Positions 9,801-64,000 of a DNA stretch of 64,000 nucleotides are shown here, piece by piece. The position numbers and the translations under genes are program-made. The stretch is from an uncultured Myxococcia bacterium (GTDB lineage: Bacteria > Myxococcota_A > JAVEVO01 > CAYZFJ01). Under the pieces are notes generated by a model. It worked only from the letters and a program-made list of their open reading frames with translations, did no database searches and was not told the DNA's origin. The stretch is taken from positions 11,380-75,379 of the forward strand of contig CAYZFJ010000001.1 of assembly GCA_964477705.1 (NCBI GenBank), given 5' to 3'. Positions within the stretch are counted from its first letter, which is position 1; every line of letters begins with the position of its first letter.

Positions 9801-10142
9801 GAAGGGAAGAAGCGGGGGAGTGTGCTCCGTGGTCTGGCAGCTTCGCCGGGAAGGGTGGTCAGTCGGGTGAGACGGCTGGATAGCCCTGAACAGTGGAGTA
9901 AACTGGCGACAGGCGAAATTTTATTGATACGTAGTGTGGATGTGGGATGGACGCCTCTCTTTCTGGTAGCTGGAGGAATGATCACTGAGCAGGGAGGTCC
10001 TCTGAGTCATGGGGCTGTGGTGGCTAGAGAGTATGGGCTTCCGGCAGTAGTAAATGTGCCTGGTGCCCTAGATGTGCTGGAAGCTGGCATGTTGGTGGAG
10101 GTTGATGGGGACAAGGGAATAGTCACTATCATTGAACAATAG
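6894..10142 (+). CDS. PEP-utilising enzyme with rifampin-phosphotransferase-like architecture (N-terminal PPDK_N ATP-grasp + C-terminal swivel phosphohistidine domain, no TIM barrel), with low-complexity S/T/N insertion; start uncertain
   Basis: N-terminal pyruvate-phosphate-dikinase PEP/pyruvate-binding-type region; C-terminal GGPLSHGAVVAREYGLPAVV mobile-domain motif at extreme C-terminus. Confidence 0.6.
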   Translation: MESRFIVDLTGTGVGVAVEMGGGGDGAGEGWVGQWGGDLSDSRVLLTLGGKALGLARLSRAGFPVPRGICVTTRAWRHVVLHNVLKKVRWAGNISLADNLSNIRQAIVDGLIPQELMIQLEDAYVRLSEGGRVPLAIRSSAISEDGRSASSAGMLASYLNVSDFSHMIRSIKLCWASQWTLEALLYQHRMLDLVDGEGGEGGGDRGREDVQNSLTQIVPQMAVVVQQMVSPHVAGVLFSQEPVTGMGDRVVICAARGLGEHVVNGEAVDTYVVAKEDKRILEFTAHGHCQQGQLNQIDERLGGDDKRQGIEQAERVVMDEILSSEMINDLVQMACAVEIAMGEPQDIEWAIANGQIWLLQARPITTSASNPASSSIDPHGPGGQGASDSSQQSLQPLFNPSVKAHHSSCADNEPAVWSSVNVGEALPGVATPLTWSIIRSFSRRGFQIAFGSLGLTVPARFGLVGSIRGRVYLNITEFMDVASAVPFLDVQTLLALGGGFCPPRVADVLQEMASRKKKRALPYLLKMPLIATRMLLSHLFTPLRASLNSRKLEQFLKQTNAQASQLNDWSSRQLTAKLEETDSIFTTTGEVMLAAASNCLASIIMVRVLLRLVVGESVSREEQRLFAGLGVKSAAPGLDLLKLAGQVSLCPELKAALLSAIGQQGRGALETLRESPAGKCFLDGPFSEFLDRHGHRAIRETELSVSRWREDPVFLLGVLSRHIRDASVEGRGMGVQDGGSSTSITSATSANSANSTNTTTQSSATCSSRLREVVQPDHGDAVVVAGWERENTALALRKRATMEVASHLPRLLRPLFYLLLGHAQSGTRRREALRSDVVQLLGVYRMLFREAGRRLSHEGYLSEPDDVFFMKAGEIAHYLHLLTGQDQKSSGRSDNAGSRIGADESIVQAGLAKEQSMDRSACSTDVLRRKIIFSLDQSLPEPPSTFIAGEKPFHHGGSLEIECVSTSNHEGKKRGSVLRGLAASPGRVVSRVRRLDSPEQWSKLATGEILLIRSVDVGWTPLFLVAGGMITEQGGPLSHGAVVAREYGLPAVVNVPGALDVLEAGMLVEVDGDKGIVTIIEQ

Positions 10143-39211: not shown

Positions 39212-39376
39212 AGCGGCAGCAAGGGGCAAGGTGAAATCACCTCTGCCTCTGCACGGGCACGGCATGCCTGAGAAGTTGTCAGTGGGCAGTGGGCAGTGGG
39301 CAAAGTTCAAGGGAGTCACCTCAGCCTCTATAGGGGTAGGGAGAACCGGTTATTACCCCGGTCCCCCCTCCCAACG

Positions 39377-39427
39377 CCTGTACGGGCACGGCATGCCGTG
39401 CCCTTCGTCAGCGGTGCACCTAACCAG
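39377..39427. repeat. REP-like palindromic element copy (core 39384-39403); degenerate half-copy at 39251-39272
   Basis: CTCCCAACGCCTGTACGGGCACGGCATGCCGTGCCCTTCGTCAGCGGTGCACCTAACC. Confidence 0.7.
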
Positions 39428-44000: not shown

Positions 44001-45283
44001 CACACATGATTCTGGCCGCCGCATGTGTCGCCATAGGGGCCACCACACAGGGTTCCCAGGAGCCAGGTTTCGCAGCGTGCAGTGTCAGGCACACATCCAT
44101 AAAGGGTTCGAGAGTTGGGCACATCTGGCACTGTAGAGCATGAGAACCCGAGAGGGCAGGTCTGACAGCGGTTCTGGTAGCAGATGGACCCAGCCGGACA
44201 CTCTCCAGTAGTCTGGCACCCATAGCAACTGCCGCCAATGCAGCGCAGGCGACATGTTCCGTCAATGCACCGCTGCATGTATGGGCAGGAGTTGTCTGGC
44301 TGGCATGGGCCTGTAGTGGTGCAGTCATAATCGCTTGAGCAGGTGTCACACTCCCTGGAACAAAATCCGGGTTCTCCTGCTTGTCGGACTACGCACAAAT
44401 CTCGCTCTGTACCGCACTCATCGTTTGTGAGGCATGGGCCACCACAGAGAGCTTGATCAGGGAGAAGACACCGGTCACCAGTTGATGGCTGGCAAACCAT
44501 GCCATCTGGGCAGGAGGTCTCTTCGCATTGGTTGTCACAGGTGCCGGCCAGAGGGACACACCATCCTTCGGTTGCGTCGGTTGTGATGGTGGCGCAGGTG
44601 TAGTTATCGGGGCATTTTAGAAATTGGTTGCAGCCTATGGAGCAGAAGCGTTGTTCGATGGCTGGGTGGTAGAGGCAGGAGGTGTTCCCCGTGCCACACT
44701 GATGATCGGTTTTGCATGGCTGGCACAGATATTCTGCATCGGGTTTGCATTTACCACTGGTCGGGTCACAGCCGTTACCCCAGGAGCAGGCGGGCTGGCC
44801 GATGCATGGGTCATCGCATCCGGTGACAGGCGTGCAGTAGTAATCTCCCCCAGAAGAGGCCATGCATGTGGTTCCGGTCGGGCAAATGGAACCGGCGGTG
44901 CTGTCTTGGGCATGGGGAGAGCAGGGCAAGGTGCAGATGCCACTTCCTGGCTCGGTGTGGGTGGGGATGATAGCGCAGGAGAGCCCGTCTGCAGTGCAGT
45001 GGGCTTGGTCTGTCAAGGAGCATGGGGTGCAGAATGAGTCGGGAACGGTGCGGTTATCGCCACCGTCAGGCCCCGTGTCGCTGTCTGCGGCAGCATCCGG
45101 ATTGTGGGTGTTGTCTCCCGCATCATCTGCGAAGTCTGCGTCATCCTCCAGGTCTGAATCGTAAGGTTCTTGGGAATCCTGATCATCAAATAAACTGGAC
45201 GGAGAGGAGCATGCAGGCAGAGCGCCCGCAATAATCAAGGTAAACAAGATGATCGGGATGAGCAGAAACTTCACGTTTATCAA
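41051..45283 (-). CDS. Giant secreted lipoprotein (1410 aa): Cys-rich EGF-like N-terminal half, (GN)n linker, C-terminal array of hhhD-x-G-G-x-D-x-Y repeats (FG-GAP/beta-propeller-like)
   Basis: Signal peptide with lipobox LPAC; >90 Cys in first 600 aa; about 10 repeats of LLxDxGGxDxY in last 500 aa. Confidence 0.6.
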   Translation of the reverse strand: MINVKFLLIPIILFTLIIAGALPACSSPSSLFDDQDSQEPYDSDLEDDADFADDAGDNTHNPDAAADSDTGPDGGDNRTVPDSFCTPCSLTDQAHCTADGLSCAIIPTHTEPGSGICTLPCSPHAQDSTAGSICPTGTTCMASSGGDYYCTPVTGCDDPCIGQPACSWGNGCDPTSGKCKPDAEYLCQPCKTDHQCGTGNTSCLYHPAIEQRFCSIGCNQFLKCPDNYTCATITTDATEGWCVPLAGTCDNQCEETSCPDGMVCQPSTGDRCLLPDQALCGGPCLTNDECGTERDLCVVRQAGEPGFCSRECDTCSSDYDCTTTGPCQPDNSCPYMQRCIDGTCRLRCIGGSCYGCQTTGECPAGSICYQNRCQTCPLGFSCSTVPDVPNSRTLYGCVPDTARCETWLLGTLCGGPYGDTCGGQNHVCSNPTSGGRCTSPCSADRDCPEGWRHCQISSSSDNPEAGTGTGNGNGNGNGNGTSTDTGICIQEEPYGWNQCGFITPLTQTEDENGVGVGAGVGASCSAQRPCAEGICFSFTLNGETRGICSHACNSDTECGAGSICTPMYGAWPAKVCLPDSCSCMEKPPAGQRDLLREMLLSSPCAFGNNAARDLLAVPEAVKADPLTMHGFSDEYRLPLQGAQLGATRSQALSRIGDPAGKPLTLAVLHAAEQQGYADATNAWQPGGANQTYDFTFDPTIFKEGEGKLLLIDGLEAIYTAAGTQAPPQDDLLDQVASLPAPVAAAAGHLLKASAQASTLRNQALEGAANITPTYGQFINDLYYRIPEVLFATKSMPADHWFRSPAVMGFLSRHYKHDLMLQAALTITSAIDQIDWTPLADTTGFYLDLVTPMGRLIIADSADDHHQPTGADHNSGNGAGILKPEGEEEAILLLIDTGGDDLYEIPVGATMSISNPISIAIDLGGHDTYSYQAPTDTGTNTAPTSPTLNAPAHVNTGTGATAPPTTTTTETARPSSIAPVAPVSLLTPDAAGRYPASSSSSSAPPDSDQLVPLGQGPNQSSSQVGRQGSGRLGIGIIADYGAGDDWYGSLRMSQGFGILGVGILLDDGGDDRYASESFSQGSALFGTGLLLDLAGQDELLAWHGCQGYGGTLGFGAVVNLGDSPDTYHAVAGDENAAPSAGPTTPPSSAPATGRDTVIFPWSENQALNRNLCQGAAAGVPPFNIYTEGIMSGGLGLLVDGGGDDYYRAGVGAQGRAEWAGRGNLVDHGGNDRYDSSALAQASADNYSLAVLLDYDGNDQFNVTVNRLHHSHLASAGEFSAAVVYNISGSDRYVANARAASFSRYNSISLFIDTDGADTYEMGDSTTLGMAMSHQDYTRKQYLTRALFIDGGGVDRYYRPDMVNNDDASPAAPAIGNNSIWEQNFSNSYYGERGNAMDTEGYTLYPRLRPAP
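43844..43890. repeat. Hexanucleotide SSR (CCCATT)n then (CCCTGT)2 inside the giant lipoprotein gene, encoding GNGNGNGNGNG
   Basis: cccattcccattcccattcccattaccattccctgtccctgtccctg. Confidence 0.8.
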
Positions 45284-45540
45284 ACCATCCGATTTCGGGA
45301 TTTCTCACTATCAATAATTGAAGAGGCATTTTTTCCAATTGTCCATAATACCAGCAGAGCTTGTGATTTGGAATAATATCCTTTGAACTACCCACCCCAT
45401 TGTCCCTTATGAGCCTCAGCACTAAATGTCTGTACGGGCACGGCACGCCGTATGTATGTTCAGTTAAGCTTCAACTCCATGCCATGAAGCCATCAGGCAC
45501 CCTATCATTTCTGTATCGATATGGATCTGGTACCACACTC

Positions 45541-45690
45541 CCTCCCAACGCCTGTAGGGGCACGGCATGCCGTGCCCTTCGTCAGCGGTGCACCCAACTC
45601 GCCTAAACAATTTTTGGCAATCCACTTGCCTTAAAAGAACACGTATGCGGCACACTGTGCCCTTCGCCAGCGGTGCGAACACTCCTTCAT
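45541..45690. repeat. REP-like element, long composite copy (core 45558-45577); additional degenerate copy at ~45430-45455
   Basis: About 110 nt near-identical to 15543-15660 including TTAAAAGAACACG segment. Confidence 0.7.
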
Positions 45691-50964: not shown

Positions 50965-51012
50965 CCCACCCCTGTACGGGCACGGCATGCCGTGCCCTTC
51001 GCCAGCGGTTTA
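50965..51012. repeat. REP-like element copy immediately 3' of cdd (core 50978-50997)
   Basis: CCTGTACGGGCACGGCATGCCGTGCCCTTCGCCAGCGG. Confidence 0.7.
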
Positions 51013-51117
51013 ATTCACTCTTCTCTTCCCGCTTTCAACCTGTAACTCTCTGTCGTAGGGGCGAGCGGCGCTCGCCCGCCAGAGCTTCGTGTCGGCAATT
51101 CAATCCAGAGCTCAAAC

Positions 51118-51175
51118 ACCTGTACGGGCACGGCATGCCGTGCCCTTTGTTAGCGGTGCACCTAACCCGCCACCA
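51118..51175. repeat. REP-like element copy (core 51126-51145); second unrelated palindrome GGGCGAGCGGCGCTCGCCC at 51056-51078
   Basis: CTGTACGGGCACGGCATGCCGTGCCCTTTGTTAGCGGTGCACCTAACC. Confidence 0.7.
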
Positions 51176-51676: not shown

Positions 51677-54600
51677 GTGAAGAATCCTGATCAATTTCGC
51701 CATACCCTATTGATTTTATTAATATTTCAATTTTCTCTACTAATCTTCTTCGGTGCTTTGGGGGGCTGTGGTGGAGATCAGAATCAGGTTGAGCTGAAAC
51801 CGGATGGAGCCATCCTAAATGGTGACGCATCGTGGGCGGCTGGGGATGCGCAATTCCAGGGTGGTTGCAGTGACGGGGAGTCTTTTTGTTTGGAGAGCGG
51901 TTGTGTCGATTTGCTCCATGACTCAGCCCATTGCGGGGAATGTGGCAATGAGTGTGATTCGGACTATGAATGTACAAATGGCTTTTGTATCTTGGCTTGC
52001 CCAGAAAACCAAGCATCTTGTGGTGATCAGTGTGTCAATCTTGCCAAGGATCTGGAACACTGCGGTGAGTGTAACAATAAATGCCCTGCAGGATACTGGT
52101 GCGAAGAAGGGGACTGTTTCTTGTTTTGTCCAGAAAACCAGACATCTTGTGGGGGGCAGTGTGTCAATCTTGCCAAGGATCCGGGACATTGTGGAGCATG
52201 CGGCATCTTTTGTAGACAGGGTCAGGTCTGCGTCAATGGTGAATGCACCTACAGTTGCCCCATTGATCAGACCGTCTGTGGCTCCCAGTGTGTGAACCTA
52301 GCCTCTGATCCCTTTAATTGTGGCCAGTGTGGGGAGGACTGCTCCGATGGAATGGTCTGCTCTGAGGGAGAATGCAATATCCATTGTGCCGTTGGCTTTC
52401 ATCAATGCGGGAGCAGTTGTGTAAACCTGCAGATTGATCGCAAACACTGTGGTGAGTGTAATGGAAAGTGTCCACCCGGTGGGCTTTGTTCTGGTGGTGA
52501 ATGCATAGTGAGTTGTCAACTCGGACTCACCGACTGTAATGGCAGTTGCGTTGATTTGCTGGATGATCGAGCTAATTGCGGGGTTTGTGACCATGCTTGT
52601 GAGGGGGGTATGGTCTGTGACAATGGGGAATGTGCATTGGATTGCCCTACACCCACAGAAGAGTGTGCCGACACGTGCGTTAATACCAATTCGGACCGTT
52701 TTCACTGTGGCCAGTGTAGTCTTGAGTGTCCGCCGGGAATGGTCTGTGACAGCGGCCAATGTACCCTCATCTGCTCATTGGACCTTACCGATTGTGAAGG
52801 TAGCTGTGTGGATCTGATGACTGATTTCAGTCACTGTGGCCAGTGTGATCTCCAGTGTTCCCAGAATCAAGAATGCAGTGATGGCTCTTGTAATTGTCGG
52901 GAAGGCTTTGTGGAATGTGACAAGGTTTGTGTCGACCTGAAAACGGATTTGGACCACTGTGGCCAGTGTGACGTCCTGTGCGAGGTTGGGTCAGAATGTA
53001 TGGCTGGGCTCTGCATAGTTCCGGTGGTTGGTGTCTCTCTGGATGCCATCCTGCTGGATTTGGCTACAGGAGCCACCCAACAACTGCTAGCTACAGTTAT
53101 CCCCGCTCAGGCAACCAACAAGGCCCTCATCTGGTCCTCCAGCCATCCCCAGATCGCCACCATTGACGAGAATGGAGTGGTGGAGGGGATCAGTCCTGGT
53201 CAGGCTCAGATCAGCGTGCAGACCGTGGATGGAGGGTACTTCGCTACCTGCATGGTCAACGTGAAGATATTGGTGAGTGGAGTAGATATTTCCCTGGCAG
53301 AATTACTGCTCAGCCCGGGCCAGACCACCCACCTCCATGCTGCCGTGAAGCCTGCCACCGCCTGCAACCAATCTCTTACCTGGCAGAGCAGCAACAGCCA
53401 GGTGGCAACTGTGGACGGGAACGGCGTGGTCACTGCCAAGGCTGATGGTCAGGCATCAGTCACGGTCACCACCGTTGATGGAGGTTTCCAGGCATCGTGT
53501 CTGGTCACAGTGGTAACAATCCAAGTTACAGGGGTGGTGCTGATGCCCGGTGAGATTCATGTCGGCCGGGGGGCGGAATATGCACTGACAGCGGTAGTGA
53601 GCCCCGCCGATGCCTCTAACAAGACTGTGGTCTGGTACAGCAGCAACCCTGCCGTGGCCAGTATCAGCCAGGATGGAGTGGTGACTGGAGTGGAGAAAGG
53701 GTCGGCCACTATTATGGTGATCACTGGTGATGGCGGATTCCATGATACTGGCACGGTCCATGTGCAGATATCTGTAGAGAGGGTAGATCTCTACTTGGAC
53801 GCTTTGTACATGGAGCAGGGTGATTATGGGACCATTTTTTTTAGAATTTTCCCGGATGATGCTACCAATAAGACGGTCATCTGGGAATCCAGTGATCCAT
53901 CCATCGCTACTATTACAGACTCTGGCATAGTCACTGCCTGCAATGTGGGAGTCACCACAATCACTGTGACCAGCGTGGATGGCAGTCACACGGATTCACT
54001 CCAAATGTTTGTATGGCTTTAATCTGCGGGAAATTACCATAGACCCGTCATCAGCCACATTGGAGGTGGGTCAGACCATTACCCTGGTGCCTGTCTTCGA
54101 TCCGTCTGACATCCTGAACCAAAGCGTGAGTTGGAGCACCAGTGACCCTGCGGTGGCAAAGGTCGATTCAGAGGGGGTGGTGACGGGTCATGCTGTAGGT
54201 CAGGCCACTATCACTGCGCTCAAGCCGGGCACGGGAGTGAGTGGCTCCTGCAAGGTACATGTGTTCACCCGGGTTACTGGTGTTACCATCACCCCGAAGA
54301 CGCTGGAGTTGACCTTGGGGCAATCGGCATCCATGACTGCCACTGTGATACCGCCTGATGCACGTGTCAGGGATGTAGTGTGGACCAGCCACAATGATCA
54401 GATCGCCATGGTGAGCAGTGATGGTTTGGTTACCGGAGTGGGCATGGGGAGAACCCGAATCACTGTTGCCACCGTAGACGGGGCGTTGTCTGACAGTGCG
54501 GACGTGGAGGTGATAATCATTCCGGTGGAGGGGGTGACCATCACTCCCACTTCGCTGAACCTGCATGTAGGTAGTGCCGGGCAGTTAAGCGCCACCATCA

Positions 54601-55800
54601 TTCCGGCTGACGCCACCGATCAGTCGGTCACCTGGGCGACTGGAATCCTGCAGTTGCCACTGTTGATGCCAACGGACTGGTCACTGGACTGGGTGTTGGT
54701 ACGACTACCATCTCTGCCACCTCCCATGATGGAAATTCAGTGGCTGTCGCCATGTTCCAAGTAAGCGCCCTGGTTGAGAGTGTGTCTGTCAGCCCAACTG
54801 AGGCTTATGTTCTGATTAATCAATCAACCCAGTTGACCGCCACGGTGTTGCCTGCCAATGCCAATAACAAGGCGGTAACCTGGTCATCGTCTGCCAATTC
54901 CGTAGCCATGGTCAATGCTTCCGGCCTGGTGACCGGGGTGGGTCTTGGCAATGCCACTGTTACAGTGAAAACGGTGGATGGTCATTTTGTCGCTACAGCT
55001 TCAGTACGAGTAATCAGCATTCCGGCAGGGTATACGTTGATTCCTTCCGGTGCTTTCACCATGGGCAGCCCGCCCGATGAACCGTTTTGGTATTATGATG
55101 AAACCCAGCATCAGGTGACCCTTACAGTCCCTTTCCTGATGAAGATTACAGAGGTAACCCAGGGAGAATGGCAGACCATAATGGGTTATAATCCATCAGC
55201 ATTACAGTCGTGTGGCTCCAATTGCCCTGTGGAGCAGGTTTATTGGCATGAAGCGTTGGCCTATGCCAATGCACTGTCCGCTGCTGAGGAGTTGCCCCAA
55301 TGTTTCACCTGTACGTGGAGTGATGACAGAGCGAACTGTAGCCTCAAGTTGCAATATGGCAAACCTTATGACTGCCCAGGCTATCGGCTGCCCACGGAGG
55401 TAGAGTGGGAGTATGCTGCCCGGGTTGGTACACCACCACAGCCATCCATACTGGACCGATAACCAGTCAGGCGTCATGTCCCAACATGAATGCTGCAGGG
55501 TGGTATTATTACAATTCAGGTGGTACCACTCATACTGTAGGGAGTAAAGCAGCCAATGCCTGGGGCCTGTATGACATGCATGGCAACGTGTGGGAGTGGA
55601 CCTGGGATTGGTATCAGTTCGACTTGGGCAGCATGGCAGTGACAGACCCTTATGGCCCATCAATGGGCGAACTCCGGGTTGCGCGGGGCGGTTCGTATCG
55701 CGAGAGCGGAGGTTACTGCCGGGCAGCGTTTTGCGGCCCCAGCAATCCTGATGAACGCGACATTTCCGTAGGTTTCCGCCTCGCCCGGTCTGTATTGTAG
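51677..55800 (+). pseudogene. Disrupted gene for a large secreted protein: ~12 tandem 38-aa Cys-rich repeats + multiple Big_2 Ig-like domains + C-terminal FGE-sulfatase (SUMF1-like) domain; reading frame broken at ~54010-54030, ~54640 and ~55420-55470
   Basis: Four consecutive ORFs (51677-54022, 53979-54764, 54740-55462, 55405-55800) whose translations continue the same domain series across frame changes. Confidence 0.5.
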
Positions 55801-56388: not shown

Positions 56389-58965
56389 ATGGCCAATTTC
56401 AAGTATGTCAAATGGTTCGAGAATGTGGGTAATGAAGATGTACCGACAGTGGGCGGGAAAAATGCTTCCCTGGGCGAAATGATTCAGCACCTGCGCACCG
56501 AGAATATCCGGGTGCCCGGGGGATTCGCCACTACCTCCGACGCCTACTGGACCTACCTGGCCTACAACAACCTCACGGGAAAGATGGGCGACATCCTCGC
56601 CTCAATGCGGGAAAACCGCACCTCTCTGAACAGGGCCGGCGAAGAGGTGAGGCAGGCTATTCGCCATGGAATCTTCCCGGAAGAGGTTGAGACCGAAATT
56701 CACGACGCATACAGGGAACTTTCCCGCAGGTATGAGCAGGAGGACCTTGCCGTTGCCGTCAGGAGCAGCGCCACTGCAGAAGACCTTCCAAGCGCCAGCT
56801 TCGCCGGTCAGCAGGAGACCTTCCTCAATGTGCGGGGTGCAGCGGATCTGCTGGCAGCTTGCAGGGACTGCTACGCCTTCCTCTTTACCGACCGGGCAAT
56901 CGTCTACAGGGAGCGGCTTGGCTATGATCACATGAAGGTGGCCTTGTCTGTGGGTGTGCAGAAAATGGTCCGCTCCGATAAAGCGGGAGCGGGCGTCATG
57001 TTCTCACTGGACACGGATACCGGATTCCCTGATGTGGTGGTGATCAATGCTTCGGTTGGGCTTGGTGAAACGGTTGTTCAGGGCGCTGTCACGCCTGACG
57101 AGTACCGTGTGTTCAAACCTAGGCTCGGAATAGGTGTCCCTCCGAGGGAAAAGGCAGCCGCAAGAGAAGGCGGGAGAGTTGGGGCAACACCGGGAGGCGT
57201 ATCAGGAAGCACATCAAGAACAGCCGCCAGAGCAGAAGCTGCCGGAGCAGAGATGGCAGCCCGGGGCACGCCTGCTACTCCTGTGGCCACCCGTGGCGCA
57301 GCAGCAGAAGCAGAAGCGAGCTCCACCCGATACAGGCCGATCATTGAAAAACGGCTGGGCGTCAAGGAGAAGATGATTGTCTATGCCGAAGGAGGCAAGA
57401 ATCGCACCAAGACCATCGACACCCCTGCTGTACAGCGGAAGCAGTTCGTCCTGTCGGATGACGAGATTATCACCCTCGCACGCTGGGCAACCGCCATCGA
57501 GCGACACTATGGTCGGCCGATGGATATGGAGTGGGCCAAGGATGGTGACTCGGGAGAGCTCTATTGTGTGCAGGCTCGACCCGAGACGGTTTTTTCGCAG
57601 AAGAAGACTCATGCCTTGAAGACATACCATCTGGACCCAACCGGTCATACCCCAATCCTGACAGGCGTGGCGGTCGGCGAGTCGATTGCGGCGGGGCGGG
57701 TGAAAGTCCTGCACCGCCCTGAACAGATGCATCTCTTCCAGGATGGCGAAATCCTTGTCACGGAGCGGACTGATCCCGACTGGGGGGAGATCATGAAGAA
57801 GGCGGTAGCCATCATCACCGACCATGGGGGAAGGACCAGCCATGCCGCAATCGTCAGCAGGGAGCTGGGCATACCGGCGGTGGTGGGGACCGGGAATGCC
57901 ACCATCACCCTGCGTGATGGGCAGGAGATAACCCTGAGTTGCGCCGAGGGGGAGGAAGGACGCATCTATGAGGGTCATCTCCAGTACGAGGAACATGAAC
58001 TGGATACCTCCACACTGCCCAGACCTCCAGTCCAGTTCATGATCAACCTGGCCACCCCACAGGCTTTGTTCCGGTGGTGGCAGCTCCCGGTGAATGGCGT
58101 GGGCCTGGCGAGGATGGAATTCATCATCAATAACTGGATCAAGATCCACCCGCTCGCCCTGGCCAGGTTCAATCAGTTGCGGGATGACAATACCAATGCC
58201 AGAGCGCAGATTGAACAACTCACAGAAGGCTATGGAGACAAGACGGAATTTTTTGTCGACAAGCTCTCCATGGGTATTTCCATGATCGCCGCATCGCAGT
58301 ACCCCGACCCCGTGATTGTGCGGACGAGCGATTTCAAGACCAACGAGTACGCCAAGCTGATTGGTGGCGCCCAATTCGAGCCCCATGAGGAGAACCCGAT
58401 GCTGGGGTTCAGGGGCGCATCCAGGTACTACAGCGACCGCTACAGAGACGGATTCGCCCTGGAATGCAGGGCGGTGAGGAAAGCACGTGATGTAATCGGG
58501 CTCGACAACATCGTGGTCATGATTCCCTTTGTCCGCACCGTCGGCGAAGCGGACCAGGTGTTGCAGGAGATGGCCGTTCACGGCCTTCAGCGCGGCCAGG
58601 ATGGTCTCCAGGTCTACATGATGTGCGAGGTGCCCTCCAACGTTTTCCTTGCCCGGGAATTCGCCGACCGCTTTGACGGATTTTCCATCGGGAGCAACGA
58701 TCTCACCCAACTCATCCTGGGGGTGGATCGGGACTCCGAGACATTGCGGTCACTATTCGATGAACAGAATGAGGCGGTGAAGATTGCCATCAGCCAGGTG
58801 ATACAGAGTGCCCACGAGAAGGGCGTAAAGGTGGGGCTGTGCGGGCAGGCTCCCAGCGATTACCCCGACTTCGCCCACTTCCTGGTAGATGAGCATATAG
58901 ATTCAATCTCCCTCAACCCGGACAGCGTCCTCCCACTACTTCAGGGTTGGGGGAAGAGAGGTTGA
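56389..58965 (+). CDS. ppsA: Phosphoenolpyruvate synthase with ~70-aa Ala/Gly/Arg-rich insertion
   Basis: MANFKYVKWFENVG...GGKNASLGEM N-terminus; TDHGGRTSHAAIVSRELGIPAVVG phosphohistidine domain; C-terminal TIM-barrel motifs. Confidence 0.85.
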   Translation: MANFKYVKWFENVGNEDVPTVGGKNASLGEMIQHLRTENIRVPGGFATTSDAYWTYLAYNNLTGKMGDILASMRENRTSLNRAGEEVRQAIRHGIFPEEVETEIHDAYRELSRRYEQEDLAVAVRSSATAEDLPSASFAGQQETFLNVRGAADLLAACRDCYAFLFTDRAIVYRERLGYDHMKVALSVGVQKMVRSDKAGAGVMFSLDTDTGFPDVVVINASVGLGETVVQGAVTPDEYRVFKPRLGIGVPPREKAAAREGGRVGATPGGVSGSTSRTAARAEAAGAEMAARGTPATPVATRGAAAEAEASSTRYRPIIEKRLGVKEKMIVYAEGGKNRTKTIDTPAVQRKQFVLSDDEIITLARWATAIERHYGRPMDMEWAKDGDSGELYCVQARPETVFSQKKTHALKTYHLDPTGHTPILTGVAVGESIAAGRVKVLHRPEQMHLFQDGEILVTERTDPDWGEIMKKAVAIITDHGGRTSHAAIVSRELGIPAVVGTGNATITLRDGQEITLSCAEGEEGRIYEGHLQYEEHELDTSTLPRPPVQFMINLATPQALFRWWQLPVNGVGLARMEFIINNWIKIHPLALARFNQLRDDNTNARAQIEQLTEGYGDKTEFFVDKLSMGISMIAASQYPDPVIVRTSDFKTNEYAKLIGGAQFEPHEENPMLGFRGASRYYSDRYRDGFALECRAVRKARDVIGLDNIVVMIPFVRTVGEADQVLQEMAVHGLQRGQDGLQVYMMCEVPSNVFLAREFADRFDGFSIGSNDLTQLILGVDRDSETLRSLFDEQNEAVKIAISQVIQSAHEKGVKVGLCGQAPSDYPDFAHFLVDEHIDSISLNPDSVLPLLQGWGKRG

Positions 58966-59298
58966 AAAGGCGGCTTTCAACAGCCCCTGCTGGCGGCCGC
59001 AGTACCGTTTGAAGGATATCTCTCAAGATTCCTCCAGTAAATGCTGACAAACAGAGCGTCTAGATCTTACACATACCTCTTGAATGACCATGAGCCATCA
59101 GTTCAGGTTCCTTCCCCGAATGTTCAAACCGTTGTAATCCCTTGAATTGTCATAAAATTATTTCAAATCAACTTACAATAACCAGTTGGAAGGTTCTGCC
59201 CTTTGTTCACGCCACCAAAGTAATACCTTGACAACCAAATCTCATCAAAGTTACATCTAAGACTCATTTTTCAACAACATCCTCAGGGGGAAACACTG

Positions 59299-59499
59299 AT
59301 GATGGACAAGTCACTTCTTGATGCCGGCTGCCGTGTTGCGTTTGCTGCACTGCTGCATGATCAAGGTAAATTTGCTGAACGGGCAGGTATGCCCAACTCC
59401 TGCAAAGTCAGGGCTCTAGGGCTAATAAACGGGAGCAAAGGGCAGCGATTTAGCGCTTGTTGGCTCAAGGGTAATACGACCGAAGAGCAGACCACATGA
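59299..59499 (+). pseudogene. 66-aa ORF carrying a Cas10/Cas3-type HD-domain N-terminal motif (AALLHDQGKFAERAG); probable truncated HD nuclease remnant or mini-protein; stop overlaps cas6 start (ATGA)
   Basis: LLHDxGKF is the start of the HD motif of Cas10/Cas3 HD domains; ORF ends after 66 aa; GGGGGA RBS. Confidence 0.3.
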
Positions 59500-60611
59500 A
59501 CCATTCTCTGAGTCTAATCAGCAATGATGCCAACATTCAGGCACAGGCTGCATCCCTCCTGGACCTGTCATCCAGCTTAACTTTGGGCAGGATCACTTTT
59601 ACCTTCTGTTCCGAGGATAATACTCGGCTTCCCCCTTTTCTTGGCTCTACCCTGAGGGGAGCTCTCGGTGGTGCCCTGCGCTCCATTGCCTGTGTGCGTG
59701 AGAGAGGTACCAACTGCCTCACTTGTGCCTTGTGTGAGGGGTGTGCCTATGCCTATCTGTTTGAAACTCCTGTCCCCTCAGCGGCCAACCGTCTGCGCCG
59801 TTTGCAGCATCTGCCTCATCCATTCATTATTGAGCCGCCTCCTCTCCAGCCAGGCGGGCTGAATCTTGAGCCTGGCTCCCTGCTCACCTTTTCTATGGTC
59901 CTGATAGGTAAAGCTACCACCTACCTCCCATATGTCCTGTTGGCAGCGTCCCGTATGGGGGCAGCCGGGTTGGGTGCCGAGCGTGCCGTCTTCCAGTTGA
60001 TAAAGGCTGAATCGGATTTGCCAGGATGGCTGATGGATGCAGTGGAAAGCGGTGAGAGCCAGAGAGACGACAGCGAACTGGCGGTTCAAGCCGCCCCGTC
60101 GTCTCTGCTCCTCTGGACGCCGGATTCAGCCGCTATCAATGGGCTCCCCAAGGTGACCCCATCCGGGCTGCAAAAGGTTCTGTCCATGCAACCAACTGAG
60201 GCAGGTGCCGCTGGCGAGCGAGTTCAGGTTGAGTTTACCACCCCTGTCAGGCTCGTTGAGCAGGGCCGAGTTGTCAGCAATCTGGAATTTAGAGTATTTA
60301 TCCGGTCTTTGCTAAGTCGTGTCTCTTCTTTGGCCATCTTCCATTGTGGGCAAGATGAACAGGATTTGGACTACCGGAGCTTGGTTGATGCTGCTGATAT
60401 GGTCAATGAGACAGAGCAAGATCTCTCCATTCGACCTCTCCAGCGGTGGAGTCAGCGTCAACAGCGGACTATTGGCCTTGATGGCCTCCTGGGAGGGGTT
60501 GCCTGGAGAGGAGAGATCATGCCGCTCCTGCTGCCCTTGATTAGAATTGGCCAGATTGTTCATGTGGGTAAAGGGACCGTCTTTGGCCTCGGCCGTTATC
60601 GCCTCTTGTAG
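59496..60611 (+). CDS. cas6: Cas6-like RAMP endoribonuclease with Zn-finger-like cysteines
   Basis: C-terminal glycine-rich loop VHVGKGTVFGLGRYRLL (G-x-G-x5-G-x-G); CLTCALCEGC cysteine cluster; adjacent to cas1. Confidence 0.5.
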   Translation: MNHSLSLISNDANIQAQAASLLDLSSSLTLGRITFTFCSEDNTRLPPFLGSTLRGALGGALRSIACVRERGTNCLTCALCEGCAYAYLFETPVPSAANRLRRLQHLPHPFIIEPPPLQPGGLNLEPGSLLTFSMVLIGKATTYLPYVLLAASRMGAAGLGAERAVFQLIKAESDLPGWLMDAVESGESQRDDSELAVQAAPSSLLLWTPDSAAINGLPKVTPSGLQKVLSMQPTEAGAAGERVQVEFTTPVRLVEQGRVVSNLEFRVFIRSLLSRVSSLAIFHCGQDEQDLDYRSLVDAADMVNETEQDLSIRPLQRWSQRQQRTIGLDGLLGGVAWRGEIMPLLLPLIRIGQIVHVGKGTVFGLGRYRLL

Positions 60612-60725
60612 AAAAGCAACCAGGTACAGAGGCGATCACAACCGCTCGATAGGTGCACGCACATTACGTTGTATTCTCTGACGAGCAATTCGCACACACC
60701 ATGGCAACATTTCGGGAGGTAGTTC

Positions 60726-63323
60726 ATGGATAAACTGGAGAAGCCCCCACTCGATACATCCTCTTTCGCCGAGTCCGCCCCTTTACCATCACCACCAGGG
60801 CTGCCCGAACAGCTTAAAATCCTGATGAGGGATGGGCTCTTTGACCAGGCCGCAGACCTGCTTCAGGCAACCGACACTAAAGCAGAGATAGACGCGCCCC
60901 TCCACCACCAATTGGCCGTCCTGGCCGAAGAGTTGGGCGTCCTGGACAAGGCGGTGCTTGAGTATAATCTCTCACTGCGTGATGTGCCTGAACAACCCGC
61001 TGTTCTTCTGCGTCTTGCTCGATTACGTCGTGACCAGGGCGATGGGGATAGAGCACTGAGGGCCTATGGAAGATTGCTTCAGCTTGAGCCAGAAAATGTA
61101 CAAGCACGCATAGAGGCTGCCGACGTCTTGGTCGAGCTTGGCAGGTATGGTGAGTCGGCCAACCTCTTGCGTGTTGGCCTTGCTTATTCGGAGAATGTGC
61201 AGTTAAAGACTGCCCTGCGGCGCCTGAACATTGTTGATGGAAGTAGGGTAAGGTCTGCGACTGCTTGTGGGTTCTCAGATGCTGGTACAGGAGATGATTA
61301 TGACGGCACCAGTACCAGCGCTGACCCAAACAGTGATTATAGCGACAATAGTGGTAATGACGAGAAGCGAATGGGCGATGGTGCGGTTCTGGGGTTGGGC
61401 ACAGGAGTGGAGGCTGGGCCTAAGGCTGGGCCTAACGCTGTACCAGTAATTGGGTCTGACTGGGGGGCAAATCAGGAAACAGGGAGGGTGGATCCAGGCG
61501 CAAACCGTGGCAGTCTTGCTTTGCGGTCTGATTGCCTGGTACCTGATGATGTGGATTTAGTTGTGTTTTCTTCTCTGTTTGCGGGTCGAGAAGGCTTTTA
61601 TGCCAGACAGTGGGCAAGCGCATCTGGTAAACACGGTTATACGCCAATAGCAGAGCCATTCACTCCTCACGTTGCCCGTGGCCACCTGCTTGGCAATCAT
61701 ACGATTGGCATTTATCCGGTTCGGATGGATCATTCTGCTCTGTTTCTCGCTTTTGATATTGATATTGCCAAGTTTGCTTTGGGAAGGTGGAACGGTGCTG
61801 GCAGCGTTGTTGGCAGCGGTGTTGGTGAGGGTAAGAGTGGGGCGTCTGGAGGTCGTGCTGCCTTGCCCGGCCATCCTATGTTGCGTCTCGCACATCAGGT
61901 CGCTGTTGGTCTGGTGAGGGCAGCGGCATCCCTTGGTGTCCCAGCCTATCTTGAAGACTCTGGCAGCAAAGGCCGCCATGTCTGGATCTTCTTTGAGACT
62001 CCCATACCGGCAGTTGCAGCCAGAAGAATTGGCAATGCAATTATCGCAGGCTCCCCCGTGGCATGTCCCCCGGAAATTACTATTGAGGTGTTCCCCAAAC
62101 AGAATCGGGTGGATAAGGATGGTGGTCTTGGCAACCTGATTAAGCTGCCCCTCGGTATTCACCTTGTTTCAGGAAGTCGCAGCCTGTTTCTGGATGAAGG
62201 TGGCAGGCCGGTTCGAGAGCAATTAGCCTACATCCGCTCGATAAAGCGCCTCTCACGGGTGGCTGTGGCAGACTTGCTCCGTGGGCTATCTGTGGTTGAT
62301 GATCCTCTCGTCACAAGAGGGAGCGGGGGACACATGCCCAGGCAAGGGCAGCTGGCAAGTCGCCAATCAGTAAATATAAAGAGCAGTCGTGGTTATGAAG
62401 TAGCAGGGCTGGCTGATGAGATGGGGGTTTGCCCTGGTGTGGTTGATGAGGTTGATGATTTACCTGAGCTTGATGAGCTTGATGAGCTTTGTGGAAGCTA
62501 CTCGGAGGCAGGCAATCGGGCCCATGGTGGTGCAGCGGCGGGGAGTGGACTTAGGCCCGGTTCTAGGCCCGGGTCTGCACAATATGTGGGCCCATTAGGT
62601 GCTGCCGGACCTGAGGTGCCACAGTACAACCTTGATGCCGATGAAGAGTTTCTATGGCTTACCCAAAAATGCCCGGTTATTGCCCAGATTGTGCGCCGGG
62701 TGCGAGAGGACAGGATTCTGCCCAACTCCCATCGCCTGATTGTTACCTATACTGTGGGGCATCTCCCAACCGGGCCCCAGGCAGTGAACACCATATTATC
62801 GTTTGCCCTCAATACGGATCGATCCTTGTTCCTTAAGTCTACGCTTAAGGGTAATCCCATGAGTTGTCCCAAGATCCGTTCTCATCTATCAGATTTGGCA
62901 AGCGCAGTGGAATGTAATTGTCGTTTTAATATGAGAGATGGCATGTATCCCACTCCTCTTTTGCATCTACAGTCGTTGAGATTGAGCGGAACCATAGGAG
63001 CTAGCCCGGGAGAGCTTGGCATGTTGCAGGTGGAACGAATGGTGTCTGATCTTTTCCGGCTTCGTGGCGAAATTGAGCGCAGCGAGAGATTGGCAAGGCA
63101 GATTGAGTCCCGGCTACTTGAGGTGATGAATGAGCACCAAGTGCGGGAATTGAGCGTGCCATCGGGGATTCTGCGGCTGCAGCCTGCTTCGGGCGGCCAG
63201 GAACATGACGAGCTTGTATTGGGACTGCCGGGTGAGAGTGTGTGTATGGCTGGTGGGGGGAGCATGGTTGTAGGGACGGGCGTAGGAGAAGATGTGGCAG
63301 CGACCACAAAAGAAACCAGATAA
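60726..63323 (+). CDS. TPR-repeat + primase-polymerase (archaeo-eukaryotic primase superfamily, CAPP-like) protein with C-terminal Cys/His-containing domain
   Basis: AEP motifs: FLAFDIDI (DxD), SGSKGRHVWIFF (sGxGxH), NLIKLPLGIHLVSGSR (motif III); N-terminal ~200 aa TPR-like helical repeats; GGGAGG RBS. Confidence 0.6.
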   Translation: MDKLEKPPLDTSSFAESAPLPSPPGLPEQLKILMRDGLFDQAADLLQATDTKAEIDAPLHHQLAVLAEELGVLDKAVLEYNLSLRDVPEQPAVLLRLARLRRDQGDGDRALRAYGRLLQLEPENVQARIEAADVLVELGRYGESANLLRVGLAYSENVQLKTALRRLNIVDGSRVRSATACGFSDAGTGDDYDGTSTSADPNSDYSDNSGNDEKRMGDGAVLGLGTGVEAGPKAGPNAVPVIGSDWGANQETGRVDPGANRGSLALRSDCLVPDDVDLVVFSSLFAGREGFYARQWASASGKHGYTPIAEPFTPHVARGHLLGNHTIGIYPVRMDHSALFLAFDIDIAKFALGRWNGAGSVVGSGVGEGKSGASGGRAALPGHPMLRLAHQVAVGLVRAAASLGVPAYLEDSGSKGRHVWIFFETPIPAVAARRIGNAIIAGSPVACPPEITIEVFPKQNRVDKDGGLGNLIKLPLGIHLVSGSRSLFLDEGGRPVREQLAYIRSIKRLSRVAVADLLRGLSVVDDPLVTRGSGGHMPRQGQLASRQSVNIKSSRGYEVAGLADEMGVCPGVVDEVDDLPELDELDELCGSYSEAGNRAHGGAAAGSGLRPGSRPGSAQYVGPLGAAGPEVPQYNLDADEEFLWLTQKCPVIAQIVRRVREDRILPNSHRLIVTYTVGHLPTGPQAVNTILSFALNTDRSLFLKSTLKGNPMSCPKIRSHLSDLASAVECNCRFNMRDGMYPTPLLHLQSLRLSGTIGASPGELGMLQVERMVSDLFRLRGEIERSERLARQIESRLLEVMNEHQVRELSVPSGILRLQPASGGQEHDELVLGLPGESVCMAGGGSMVVGTGVGEDVAATTKETR

Positions 63324-63343
63324 GCACTGATAAGCACCAAACA

Positions 63344-64000
63344 ATGTCTTCAATTCTTTATGTAACTGAACAGGGGAGTGAACTCGGCATACAGCGTACC
63401 CGTCTGGAGGTCAGGAAGGGTGGACGTGTGCTGAACTCCGTGCGTTTTGAAGATCTTGGTCAAGTAGTCTTGTGCGGCAATGTACAGCTCTCCATTCAGG
63501 CAATACGCTCTCTGCTGCGTAATGGAATCGACACGGTGTTTCTTACAATGGGGGGCTCGTTTCTAGGCAGGCTCTCAGGACCGATGGGCAAGAATGTGGA
63601 GCTGCGTCACCTTCAGCACCAGCTCCTTGATGATCCTGAACAGACCCTTGAGATCGCCAGGCGAATGGTAGCAGGCAAGCTGGCTAATTCGGTTGCTTTG
63701 CTCCGTCGTTATCAAAGGAGCAGACAAGATGACCGGATTGCCCGACCCATGGTAGCTATCAGATTGCTCGGAGAGAGATTAGCCGAGGTAGATAACCTTG
63801 ATGCCCTGAGAGGGATGGAAGGCAAAGCCGCTGCCGACTATTTCAGTGCCTTTCCTGCATTGCTCATGGCCCCGGGAATGGATTTCGTCAAGCGGGTAAG
63901 AAGGCCGCCGCCTGATCCGGTCAATATTCTTTTGTCTCTCGGGTACACAATGCTTGGAAACCTGGTGCAGGGGATGGTTGAGCTGGCAGGCTTGGACCCA
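63344..64000 (+). CDS. cas1: CRISPR-associated endonuclease Cas1, 3' truncated by window edge
   Basis: MSSILYVTEQGSELG N-terminus; RVRRPPPDPVNILLSLGYTML conserved Cas1 segment; 20 nt after Prim-Pol gene. Confidence 0.8.
   Translation, partial: MSSILYVTEQGSELGIQRTRLEVRKGGRVLNSVRFEDLGQVVLCGNVQLSIQAIRSLLRNGIDTVFLTMGGSFLGRLSGPMGKNVELRHLQHQLLDDPEQTLEIARRMVAGKLANSVALLRRYQRSRQDDRIARPMVAIRLLGERLAEVDNLDALRGMEGKAAADYFSAFPALLMAPGMDFVKRVRRPPPDPVNILLSLGYTMLGNLVQGMVELAGLDP

What the first reader, a model, noticed from the sequence alone, without database searches (positions are those of the whole stretch)
60726..63323. Three-part architecture of the Prim-Pol protein: TPR - linker - AEP core - Cys/His C-terminal domain
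Residues ~1-180 form TPR-like repeats (protein-protein interaction). A D/N/S/G-rich linker follows, then the AEP core (~300-500). An acidic DELDELDEL tract comes next, then a ~250-aa C-terminal region with C-x..H..C..CNC residues reminiscent of PriCT/zinc-binding primase C-terminal domains, ending in a coiled-coil-like segment. The TPR could dock onto Cas1-Cas2 or Cas6.
Basis: inference. Interest (0 to 1): 0.6.

Follow-up and report, generated by a model that had tools for sequence, protein, structure and literature searches.

The report
CRISPR-associated primase-polymerase, TPR type
This gene encodes an ordinary, though unusually long, member of an already published family of CRISPR-associated DNA primase-polymerases that sit next to the spacer integrase Cas1, and its TPR / primase core / cysteine-rich tail layout matches the published architecture.

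Summary
- TPR array, res 23-170.
- Disordered D/N/S/G-rich linker, 171-267.
- AEP Prim-Pol core, 268-526, with invariant D344xD346, H418 and E454.
- Disordered linker carrying the acidic repeat, 527-635.
- Helical domain with four conserved Cys, 636-762.
- A long helix plus a small beta-sheet, 766-835.

The protein is not a new kind. It scores above the curated cutoff of NCBIfam NF040561, "CRISPR-associated primase-polymerase type A1" (266 vs 200 bits). Its core matches the Marinitoga CAPP crystal structures. It lies between Cas6 and Cas1. TPR-AEP-CTD is the published "CAPP-TPR" architecture (Zabrady 2021).

Differences from typical members:
- About 200 aa of lineage-specific, predicted-disordered insertions; each of the four in-frame micro-tandem repeats in the ORF lies inside one of them.
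- The C-terminal region is two modules; the second aligns with the Pfam "Mu Gam/Sipho_Gp157-like" domain of homologs.
- The Cys domain matches no PriCT or PriL profile and gives only weak fold hints to primase accessory domains.
- Cas6 immediately upstream is a minority arrangement.

Whether the Cys bind zinc or Fe-S, and whether the TPR docks onto Cas proteins, remains untested. Interest is low.

The parts
60726..63323 (+). CAPP type A1 gene (865 aa plus stop)
   Evidence: ORF. NCBIfam NF040561 scores 266 bits against a cutoff of 200. An identical protein, P0001, is present in NCBI-derived data.
60714..60719 (+). Shine-Dalgarno GGGAGG, 6 nt before the ATG
   Evidence: Read directly from the sequence.
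60792..61235 (+). TPR domain, res 23-170: 9 helices, about 4 TPR motifs plus a capping helix
   Evidence: Pfam TPR_19 E 2.2e-8. AF2 pLDDT >90 with helices H23-35 through H158-170. Foldseek hits to CTPR and OGT TPR proteins.
61236..61526 (+). Disordered D/N/S/G-rich linker 1, res 171-267, mostly lineage-specific
   Evidence: pLDDT <50 for 175-267. Res 170-227 and 241-262 are present in <30% of homologs. In-frame 12-nt repeat at 61411-61440.
61527..62303 (+). AEP / Prim-Pol catalytic core, res 268-526
   Evidence: Pfam AEP-TOTE E 2.9e-45. PDB 7nqd/7nqf by sequence, E 4e-27. Foldseek 7nqe, target TM-score 0.94, rmsd 2.0 A. Invariant D344, D346, H418 and E454.
61791..61856 (+). Gly/Ser-rich loop insertion inside the AEP core, res 356-377
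   Evidence: It falls in the gap (res 355-392) between the two stretches aligned to 7nqd. Res 356-375 are present in <30% of homologs. pLDDT <50 at 363-367 and 369-377. 12-nt repeat at 61793-61825.
62304..62630 (+). Disordered linker 2, res 527-635
   Evidence: pLDDT <50 for 527-625. Res 544-571 and 587-618 are present in <30% of homologs. 12-nt repeat at 62552-62576 encoding RPGSRPGS.
62442..62489 (+). Acidic tract VDEVDDLPELDELDEL, res 573-588, within linker 2
   Evidence: TRF period 9, 5.2 copies; translation.
62631..63011 (+). Helical four-Cys C-terminal domain, res 636-762 (C649, C714, C730, C732; H679, H747)
   Evidence: AF2 pLDDT >90. Cys conserved in 69-72 of 73 sequences. A profile of the domain finds 855 representative clusters; the 150 listed are CAPP-sized proteins or fragments. 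No Pfam or PDB profile hit.
63021..63230 (+). Long helix (766-803) plus three strands (808-833): Mu Gam/Sipho_Gp157-like module
   Evidence: Secondary structure. It aligns with the PF22709 region of P0028, which scores 53 bits. The window protein's own PF22709 hit is sub-threshold, E 0.046 and 14 bits.
63237..63320 (+). Disordered lineage-specific C-terminal tail, res 838-865
   Evidence: pLDDT <50. Res 839-865 are present in <30% of homologs.
59496..60611 (+). Cas6 gene (371 aa), ending 114 nt upstream
   Evidence: Pfam CRISPR_Cas6 E 1.4e-14.
63344..64000 (+). Cas1 gene, N-terminal 219 codons; runs off the window. Starts 20 nt after the CAPP stop.
   Evidence: TIGR00287 cas1 E 1e-52.

Best explanation
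The gene encodes a CRISPR-associated primase-polymerase of class A, TPR type (CAPP type A1). It is the DNA-synthesis partner of the Cas1(-Cas2) spacer integrase of a type III CRISPR-Cas system.

Proposed mechanism, by homology with the characterised Marinitoga enzyme:
- The AEP core binds ssDNA and two nucleotides. It starts a primer with a ribonucleotide (preferably GTP), extends it with dNTPs, and can carry out strand-displacement synthesis.
- The published proposal is that this converts ssDNA fragments into double-stranded prespacers for Cas1-Cas2 and fills or relaxes the integration intermediate.
- The TPR and the C-terminal region mediate self-association and partner binding.
- The four-Cys helical domain hangs on a flexible tether. 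It is inferred to act like the PriL/PriX accessory domain, stabilising the initiating nucleotide and the primer 5' end.

What is shown here: family membership, intact catalytic residues, folded domains, disordered tethers, and Cas1 adjacency.
What is inferred: all enzymatic activities, protein contacts and the in vivo role in adaptation for this particular protein.

The ~200 extra residues are low-complexity linker expansions, most likely produced by replication slippage. They are probably tolerated rather than functional.
For: - NCBIfam equivalog NF040561 'CRISPR-associated primase-polymerase type A1': E 5e-79, 266 bits, cutoff 200.
- The AEP core matches the Marinitoga sp. 1137 CAPP structures by sequence (E 4e-27) and by fold (target TM-score 0.91-0.94, rmsd 2.0-2.7 A).
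- D344/D346 align with MpCAPP D177/D179, whose AxA mutant is inactive (PMC8211822). E454 aligns with E260, which coordinates metal A and the 2'-OH of the initiating nucleotide (PMC10345425; alignment).
- All motif residues are invariant in 73 sequences.
- Cas1 starts 20 nt downstream. In 66 of 67 related loci with enough downstream sequence, a same-strand Cas1 follows directly.
- Related locus L003 reads Cas6-Cas10/Csm1-Csm2-Csm3-Csm4-Csm5-TM1812 family-IS200-CAPP-Cas1-Cas2.
- The upstream neighbours in 59 related loci are mostly type III CARF proteins.
- Published biochemistry covers primase, polymerase and strand-displacement activities, Cas1 binding to fragment 1-360, and CTD and TPR self-association (PMC8211822).
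- The insertions are confined to segments with pLDDT <50, and every in-frame tandem repeat in the ORF lies in one of them.
Against: - No Cas2, CRISPR array or effector genes are visible in the window, and the genes upstream of Cas6 are housekeeping. A complete CRISPR system is therefore not shown here.
- The in vivo role of any CAPP in adaptation is still a proposal in the literature (PMC8211822 Discussion).
- The 22-residue loop insertion in the AEP core and the ~100-residue tethers are untested for their effect on activity.
- The PriL-like role of the CTD rests on weak fold hits and a published model, not on data.
Confidence: 0.82

Rival explanations
1. It is the primase component of a TOTE (TPR, OB, TBP, Effector) conflict system rather than a CRISPR component. 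It would make DNA or primers as part of a CRISPR-independent anti-phage response.
For: The best Pfam hit is AEP-TOTE, PF22548. Homologs carry the PF22709 'Mu Gam/Sipho_Gp157-like domain of the TOTE conflict systems'. A TPR is present.
Against: The immediate neighbours are Cas6 and Cas1, not OB/CSD, TBP or effector genes. The proteins that sources annotate as TOTE are AEP-helicase fusions at only E 1e-13 to 1e-24 and 28-33% identity. The NCBIfam CRISPR-specific equivalog passes its cutoff. Cas1 follows in 66 of 67 related loci.
Confidence: 0.03
2. It is a replicative primase of an integrated mobile element (plasmid, phage or casposon-like) that merely sits beside cas genes.
For: AEP Prim-Pols are common MGE replicases. 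CAPP relatives outside CRISPR loci occur on MGEs (PMC8211822). An IS200 transposase is adjacent in some related loci.
Against: tblastn found no match in 50,697 phage records. In plasmids only the AEP core matches, at 26-29% identity, and always inside AEP-helicase fusions; nothing matches the CTD. The protein has no helicase domain. The window is chromosomal, with rpoB/rpoC and nucleoside-salvage genes. Synteny with Cas1 is conserved across phyla.
Confidence: 0.03
3. It is a decaying or catalytically compromised copy. The low-complexity expansions, including one inside the AEP core, would have disabled it, leaving at most a scaffold.
For: At 865 aa it is the second longest of the 73 aligned sequences (range 502-875 aa; most are about 580-700). 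It has seven lineage-specific insertions. No effector genes or array are visible in the window.
Against: The reading frame is intact and has a strong SD. All 28 invariant family positions are retained. Every insertion maps to a loop or linker with pLDDT <50, while the domains model at pLDDT >90. The neighbouring PEP synthase also appears to carry a low-complexity insert (sequence; one search shows PPDK_N split into two stretches), which suggests a genome-wide habit rather than gene decay.
Confidence: 0.07
4. It is a genuine CAPP, but its main role is not prespacer synthesis or gap filling. It might instead work in DNA damage tolerance or repair at targeted DNA, or in priming on transcripts or R-loops generated during type III interference.
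For: The adaptation role is a proposal only. MpCAPP binds Argonaute through its CTD, so partners beyond Cas1 exist. Related Prim-Pol-RT proteins act in defence and in the oxidative damage response (abstracts).
Against: The near-universal same-strand adjacency is to Cas1 specifically, not to effector genes. CAPPs prefer DNA templates and work poorly on RNA.
Confidence: 0.08

Closest known systems
Marinitoga piezophila / Marinitoga sp. 1137 CAPP (MpCAPP, MsCAPP; CAPP_A 'CAPP-TPR' type; PDB 7NQD, 7NQE, 7NQF, 7P9J, 7QAZ)
   Same: Same order of TPR, AEP and Cys-containing CTD. Same catalytic residues (D177/D179 = D344/D346; E260 = E454). Cas1 immediately downstream. The NCBIfam model named for this type covers res 387-785 in its best stretch.
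   Different: - 865 aa versus 546 aa.
- About 4.5 TPR motifs here versus three reported for MpCAPP.
- About 200 aa of disordered insertions.
- Only ~29% identity in the core.
- Cas6 rather than a CRISPR array upstream.
- No Argonaute visible in the window.
TOTE-type AEP-helicase fusions (Pfam PF22548 with ResIII/DEAD; e.g. P0084, annotated as a TOTE conflict system AEP protein)
   Same: The AEP core belongs to the same Pfam family.
   Different: They have no TPR and no four-Cys CTD, and they carry a C-terminal SF2 helicase. They are plasmid-borne or chromosomal and not next to Cas1. Identity is 26-33% over the core only.
CART-CAPP (RT-Prim-Pol fusions) and Cas6-RT-Cas1 fusions of type III systems
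   Same: They are nucleic-acid polymerases coupled to Cas1. The gene order here, Cas6-CAPP-Cas1, mirrors the domain order of Cas6-RT-Cas1 fusion proteins (PMC10415136).
   Different: Here there are three separate genes. The protein has a TPR instead of an RT at its N-terminus. The parallel is an inference.
Eukaryotic/archaeal primase PriS + PriL-CTD (4Fe-4S) / PriX
   Same: An AEP catalytic module is paired with a flexibly tethered helical accessory domain bearing four Cys. A published model places the CAPP CTD at the initiating nucleotide (PMC10345425). There are weak Foldseek hits to p58C entries 3q36, 5f0q, 8g9l and 4rr2 and to viral primase proteins.
   Different: Here it is a single chain. 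There is no sequence or profile similarity. The fold hits are not significant in the PDB search (E >1, TM 0.21-0.27). Cys spacing is 65/16/2 here versus 80/17/40 in human PriL as I recall it from memory. The metal is unknown.
PP domain and PP-CTD of the defence reverse transcriptase DRT7
   Same: It has a CAPP-like Prim-Pol domain followed by a CTD described as distantly similar to the eukaryotic primase CTD (bioRxiv 10.64898/2026.04.18.719102).
   Different: The DRT7 PP-CTD is reported to lack an Fe-S cluster, whereas the CAPP A1 CTD keeps four near-invariant Cys. DRT7 is an RT fusion acting in abortive infection, not a partner of Cas1.

Membership tests
CAPP type A1 (CAPP_A, TPR type; NCBIfam NF040561) | Whole-protein score above the curated equivalog cutoff | tested here: met
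   266.2 bits against a cutoff of 200, E 5e-79, in three stretches split by the insertions.
CAPP type A1 (CAPP_A, TPR type; NCBIfam NF040561) | AEP motifs I (DxD), II (sxH) and III (acidic) intact and aligned with MsCAPP | tested here: met
   D344, D346, S412, H418 and E454 are invariant in 73 sequences. They align with 7nqd, and the fold TM-score is 0.94.
CAPP type A1 (CAPP_A, TPR type; NCBIfam NF040561) | N-terminal TPR domain | tested here: met
   Pfam TPR_19 E 2e-8. Nine confident helices at res 23-170. TPR fold hits.
CAPP type A1 (CAPP_A, TPR type; NCBIfam NF040561) | C-terminal domain with conserved cysteines | tested here: met
   C649, C714, C730 and C732 are conserved in 69-72 of 73 sequences. 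The best stretch of the NCBIfam hit (profile 213-510 of 515) extends to res 785, past the Cys domain.
CAPP type A1 (CAPP_A, TPR type; NCBIfam NF040561) | Operonic association with Cas1 and Cas2 | tested here: inconclusive
   Cas1 starts 20 nt downstream. Cas2 would lie beyond the window end. In 66 of 67 related loci Cas1 follows, and Cas2 follows Cas1 in L003.
CAPP type A1 (CAPP_A, TPR type; NCBIfam NF040561) | Type III CRISPR-Cas context | not testable with these tools
   Only Cas6 is visible, and there is no array or effector in the window. The source contig could not be fetched. Relatives sit in type III-A loci.
CAPP type A1 (CAPP_A, TPR type; NCBIfam NF040561) | DNA primase, polymerase and strand-displacement activity | not testable with these tools
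   Needs biochemistry. Shown only for MpCAPP and DbCAPP (PMC8211822).
TOTE conflict system (TPR, OB, TBP, Effector) | AEP-TOTE Pfam domain | tested here: met
   PF22548, 155 bits against a cutoff of 27.
TOTE conflict system (TPR, OB, TBP, Effector) | Neighbouring OB/cold-shock, TBP and effector genes | tested here: not met
   The flanking genes are PEP synthase, Cas6 and Cas1.
PriCT-1 / PriCT-2 primase C-terminal domains | Match to Pfam PriCT_1 (PF08708) or PriCT_2 (PF08707) | tested here: not met
   No hit for the full protein at E<=1. No hit for 28 CTD sequences at E<=10 or for the CTD fragments. hhalign against the PriCT_1-bearing P0086 gives probability 0.1%.
PriL-CTD / PriX-type primase accessory domain (4Fe-4S in PriL) | Sequence or profile similarity (Pfam DNA_primase_lrg; PDB chains) | tested here: not met
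   No Pfam hit. No PDB chain at E<=10 with the CTD profile.
PriL-CTD / PriX-type primase accessory domain (4Fe-4S in PriL) | Shared helical fold | tested here: inconclusive
PriL-CTD / PriX-type primase accessory domain (4Fe-4S in PriL) | Four Cys positioned to ligate one cluster | not testable with these tools
   Four near-invariant Cys exist.
Mu Gam/Sipho_Gp157-like domain of TOTE systems (PF22709) | Pfam match above the gathering score | tested here: inconclusive
   The window protein scores 14.1 bits against a cutoff of 27 (E 0.046) at res 770-817. Homolog P0028 scores 53 bits, and its domain aligns column for column with res 769-835. The predicted helix+beta structure is the same.

The most novel reading that the evidence does not exclude
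The four near-invariant cysteines of the CAPP A1 C-terminal domain might ligate a [4Fe-4S] cluster, as in the primase large subunit, rather than zinc. The enzyme would then be a single-chain bacterial counterpart of PriS-PriL. Its cluster domain, swinging on a disordered tether, would hold the initiating nucleotide and primer 5' end. The terminal Mu Gam/Gp157-like helix+beta module would dimerise or bind DNA ends to hand a measured duplex to Cas1-Cas2. In this locus Cas6-CAPP-Cas1 would then be a split analogue of Cas6-RT-Cas1 adaptation fusions.
Probability: 0.2. Interest if true: 0.45.

Novelty: new member of a known kind. Interest (0 to 1): 0.18.

Why it matters
For annotation, the gene can be named CRISPR-associated primase-polymerase type A1, and the Cas6-CAPP-Cas1 block marks the start of a CRISPR-Cas locus whose remainder lies beyond the window.

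Scientifically it adds little. The architecture, the core structure and the biochemistry of the family are published.

The modest open points concern the family rather than this gene:
- The four-Cys CTD has no Pfam model and no solved structure, and its metal is unidentified.
- The terminal helix+beta module corresponds to a Mu Gam/Gp157-like domain, which fits the reported CTD-CTD self-association.
- This member shows that the inter-domain tethers and one AEP loop tolerate about 200 residues of low-complexity expansion. That is useful when designing constructs or domain boundaries.

Tried and rejected
- Fetching the source contig. The look-up of encoding contigs found no record for the CAPP or for Cas6. 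The genome-contig scan returned relatives only, not the source genome. The listing of cluster members gave no name or accession. Cas2, the array and the effectors downstream therefore stay unseen.
- CRISPR array in the window. TRF and two direct-repeat scans found none.
- PriCT membership. Rejected at the profile level.
- PriL-CTD homology by sequence. Rejected.
- TOTE system membership. Rejected on gene context.
- Phage or plasmid replicase. There is no phage match, and plasmid matches are confined to the AEP core of helicase fusions.
- Cys-cluster geometry. Model coordinates are not exposed to the sandbox.
- Promoter and terminator scan of 58800-64000. Nothing above shuffled expectation.
- The Curr Opin Struct Biol 2023 paper that models full-length CAPP is not held in the library.
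Full report
**Observation.** The coordinates 60726-63323 bound a single + strand ORF of 865 codons ending in TAA. A GGGAGG Shine-Dalgarno lies 6 nt before the ATG.
- The segment 181-275 is 48% D/N/S/G.
- The acidic tract reads VDEVDDLPELDELDEL (res 573-588).
- The C-terminal part contains C649, H679, C714 and C730-N-C732.

**Domain map.** Pfam gives AEP-TOTE (PF22548) at res 279-515 with E 2.9e-45, and several TPR families at res 77-164 with E down to 2e-8. I built an AlphaFold2 model from a 73-sequence alignment of homologs (alignment A1; model; mean pLDDT 75.8). It resolves the protein as ordered modules joined by disordered stretches:

| Residues | Feature | Confidence |
|---|---|---|
| 1-22 | N-terminal extension | low pLDDT, absent from most homologs |
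| 23-170 | nine helices, about four TPR motifs plus a cap | pLDDT >90 |
| 175-267 | linker 1 | pLDDT <50 |
| 268-526 | alpha/beta AEP core | pLDDT >90, except a loop at 363-377 |
| 527-625 | linker 2 | pLDDT <50 |
| 636-762 | helical domain | pLDDT >90 |
| 766-803, 808-833 | a 38-residue helix, then three strands | mostly pLDDT 80-94 |
| 838-865 | C-terminal tail | pLDDT <50 |

A separate model of res 626-838 has mean pLDDT 92 and the same secondary structure. Neither is met.

**Identity of the protein.** NCBIfam's equivalog model NF040561, "CRISPR-associated primase-polymerase type A1", scores 266 bits against a curated cutoff of 200.
[quoted passage not shown] 1137 CAPP by sequence (7nqd/7nqf, E 4e-27).
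- It also matches by fold (7nqe, target TM-score 0.94, rmsd 2.0 A).
- From the alignment, D344/D346 correspond to MpCAPP D177/D179. The double-alanine mutant of that pair abolishes polymerase and primase activity (PMC8211822).
- E454 corresponds to E260, which coordinates metal A and the 2'-OH of the initiating ribonucleotide (PMC10345425).
- These residues, together with S412, G413, K415, G416, H418, W420, P457, Q459 and the GNLxKxPxGxH stretch (G469-H479), are invariant across the 73 aligned sequences.

**Context.**
- A Cas6 gene (PF10040, E 1.4e-14) ends 114 nt upstream.
- A Cas1 gene (TIGR00287, E 1e-52) starts 20 nt downstream and runs off the window.
- Upstream of Cas6 are PEP synthase and nucleoside-salvage genes, and rpoB/rpoC lie at 19-28 kb. 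The region is therefore chromosomal, and the cas block begins at Cas6.
- No CRISPR array is present in the window.

**Relatives.** A scan of one genome per species found 378 loci encoding a relative, and I kept the best 80.
- Of the 67 loci with at least 900 nt of downstream sequence, 66 have a same-strand Cas1 directly after the CAPP gene, with a median gap of about 86 nt.
- Locus L003 reads Cas6-Cas10/Csm1-Csm2-Csm3-Csm4-Csm5-TM1812 family-IS200-CAPP-Cas1-Cas2, which is type III-A.
- The gene immediately upstream in 59 related loci is most often a CARF protein: TIGR02710 in 14, TM1812/DxTHG in 9, Csm6 in 4. It is Cas6 in only 2.
- A tblastn search with the window's Cas6 places a homolog within 700 nt upstream in only 3 loci.
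- The Cas6-CAPP-Cas1 order seen here is thus a minority arrangement. It parallels the domain order of the known Cas6-RT-Cas1 fusions (PMC10415136). That parallel is my inference.

**Comparison with the literature.** Zabrady et al. 2021 (PMC8211822) define CAPP_A type 1, exemplified by MpCAPP (546 aa). [quoted passage not shown] That is the three-part architecture of the finding. The same paper reports the following:
- DNA-dependent primase, DNA polymerase and strand-displacement activities.
- Self-association through the CTD and through TPR-to-deltaCTD contacts.
- Binding of Cas1 to fragment 1-360 and of Argonaute to the CTD.
- A proposal that CAPPs synthesise double-stranded prespacers and complete the integration intermediate.

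The architecture is therefore already known, and this protein is a further member.

**What is particular to this member.** At 865 aa it is the second longest of the 73 aligned sequences, which range from 502 to 875 aa.
- Segments 4-22, 170-227, 241-262, 356-375, 544-571, 587-618 and 839-865 are present in fewer than 30% of homologs.
- Apart from part of the N-terminal extension, they fall in low-confidence parts of the model.
- All four tandem repeats that TRF finds inside the ORF have periods that are multiples of three: 12, 12, 9 and 12 nt. Each lies in one of these insertions, at res 229-239, 356-367, 573-588 and 609-617.
- The simplest reading is expansion of linkers and one surface loop by replication slippage. 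The neighbouring PEP synthase also appears to carry an Ala/Gly/Thr-rich insert (sequence; PPDK_N split into two stretches), which suggests a genomic habit. That is inference.
- Per-domain conservation is highest in the AEP core (mean 47% identity to the query) and the Cys domain (43%). It is lower in the TPR (31%) and the terminal helix+beta module (29%).

**The C-terminal region is two modules.**

The first is res 636-762.
- It carries C649, C714, C730 and C732, conserved in 69-72 of 73 sequences. The few exceptions that I inspected show a nearby shifted Cys.
- It also carries H679 and H747.
- A profile of this domain (alignment A3) finds 855 representative clusters at E<=1e-3 among 1.84 billion. 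All 150 hits listed are CAPP-sized proteins with the domain at about res 430-550, or fragments.
- The profile has no Pfam match, including PriCT_1, PriCT_2 and DNA_primase_lrg, and no PDB sequence match at E<=10.
- It does not align with the PriCT_1 region of a relative that has one (hhalign probability 0.1%).
- Foldseek against the PDB finds nothing significant. Even so, 5 of the 39 weak hits are the 4Fe-4S domain of human or Xenopus primase large subunit (E 1.6-7, TM 0.19-0.27).
- Against viral models, the best hit is a phage AE_Prim_S_like protein (E 6e-3, prob 1.0, TMq 0.37). A DUF927 primase, an archaeal-virus PriL and a D5 helicase-primase follow more weakly.
- A primase accessory-domain fold is therefore plausible but not demonstrated, and the metal is unknown.
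- A recent preprint describes the CTD of the CAPP-like Prim-Pol domain of DRT7 as distantly PriL-CTD-like without a cluster. A review reports a model in which the CAPP CTD contacts the initiating nucleotide.

The second module is res 766-835.
- It aligns with the Pfam PF22709 "Mu Gam/Sipho_Gp157-like" domain that homologs such as P0028 match at 53 bits.
- The window protein itself reaches only 14 bits (E 0.046).
It is a reasonable candidate for the CTD-CTD self-association reported for MpCAPP, but that is inference.

**Rivals.**
- A TOTE conflict-system role is contradicted by the gene neighbours and by the distance to the AEP-helicase proteins that sources annotate as TOTE.
- A mobile-element replicase is contradicted by the absence of any phage match, by plasmid matches limited to the AEP core of helicase fusions, and by the conserved Cas1 synteny.
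- A decayed copy is unlikely given the intact frame, motifs and domain models.
- A CAPP role other than adaptation cannot be excluded, because the adaptation role itself is still only a proposal.

**Verdict.** The TPR-to-Cas docking idea and the zinc/PriCT label remain untested or unsupported. This is a new member of a known kind and of low interest. The only open thread is the nature of the four-Cys domain and the terminal Mu Gam-like module in this family.

Noticed in passing
window 39245-39415, 45426-45674, 50968-51157: A dispersed 42-nt REP-like repeat with the palindromic core GGGCACGGCATGCCGTGCCC. Seven copies occur in three groups at these positions, which appear to lie between the large ORFs.
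   Followed up: no
window 41051-45283 (-): A 1410-aa ORF with no Pfam match at E<=1e-5. It contains short hexamer repeats at 43841-43882.
   Followed up: no
window 51677-54022 (+): A 781-aa MXAN_6577-like cysteine-rich protein built from 129-nt (43-aa) repeats. A Big_2 domain protein follows at 53979-54764. This hints at a Myxococcota-like host.
   Followed up: partly
window 56389-58965 (+): The PEP synthase-like protein appears to carry an Ala/Gly/Thr-rich low-complexity insert at about res 250-315, which splits its PPDK_N domain into two stretches. This is the same kind of expansion as in the CAPP linkers.
   Followed up: partly
window 59496-60611 (+): The Cas6 here is 371 aa. The Pfam Cas6 model matches only its C-terminal part (res 245-368), and no NCBIfam Cas6 model hits it at E<=0.01. 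It is a divergent, extended Cas6. Homologs in related loci usually sit 7-9 kb upstream of CAPP, ahead of the csm genes.
   Followed up: partly
L001 1117-1593; L003 9477-9926: In some related loci the gene directly upstream of CAPP is Cas2 (L001) or an IS200/IS605 transposase (L003 and two others). The junction between the effector and adaptation modules is therefore variable.
   Followed up: no
window 6894-10142 (+): A second PEP-utilising enzyme of 1082 aa has a PPDK_N domain and a mobile domain. Between them lie about 630 residues with no Pfam match at E<=1e-5.
   Followed up: no
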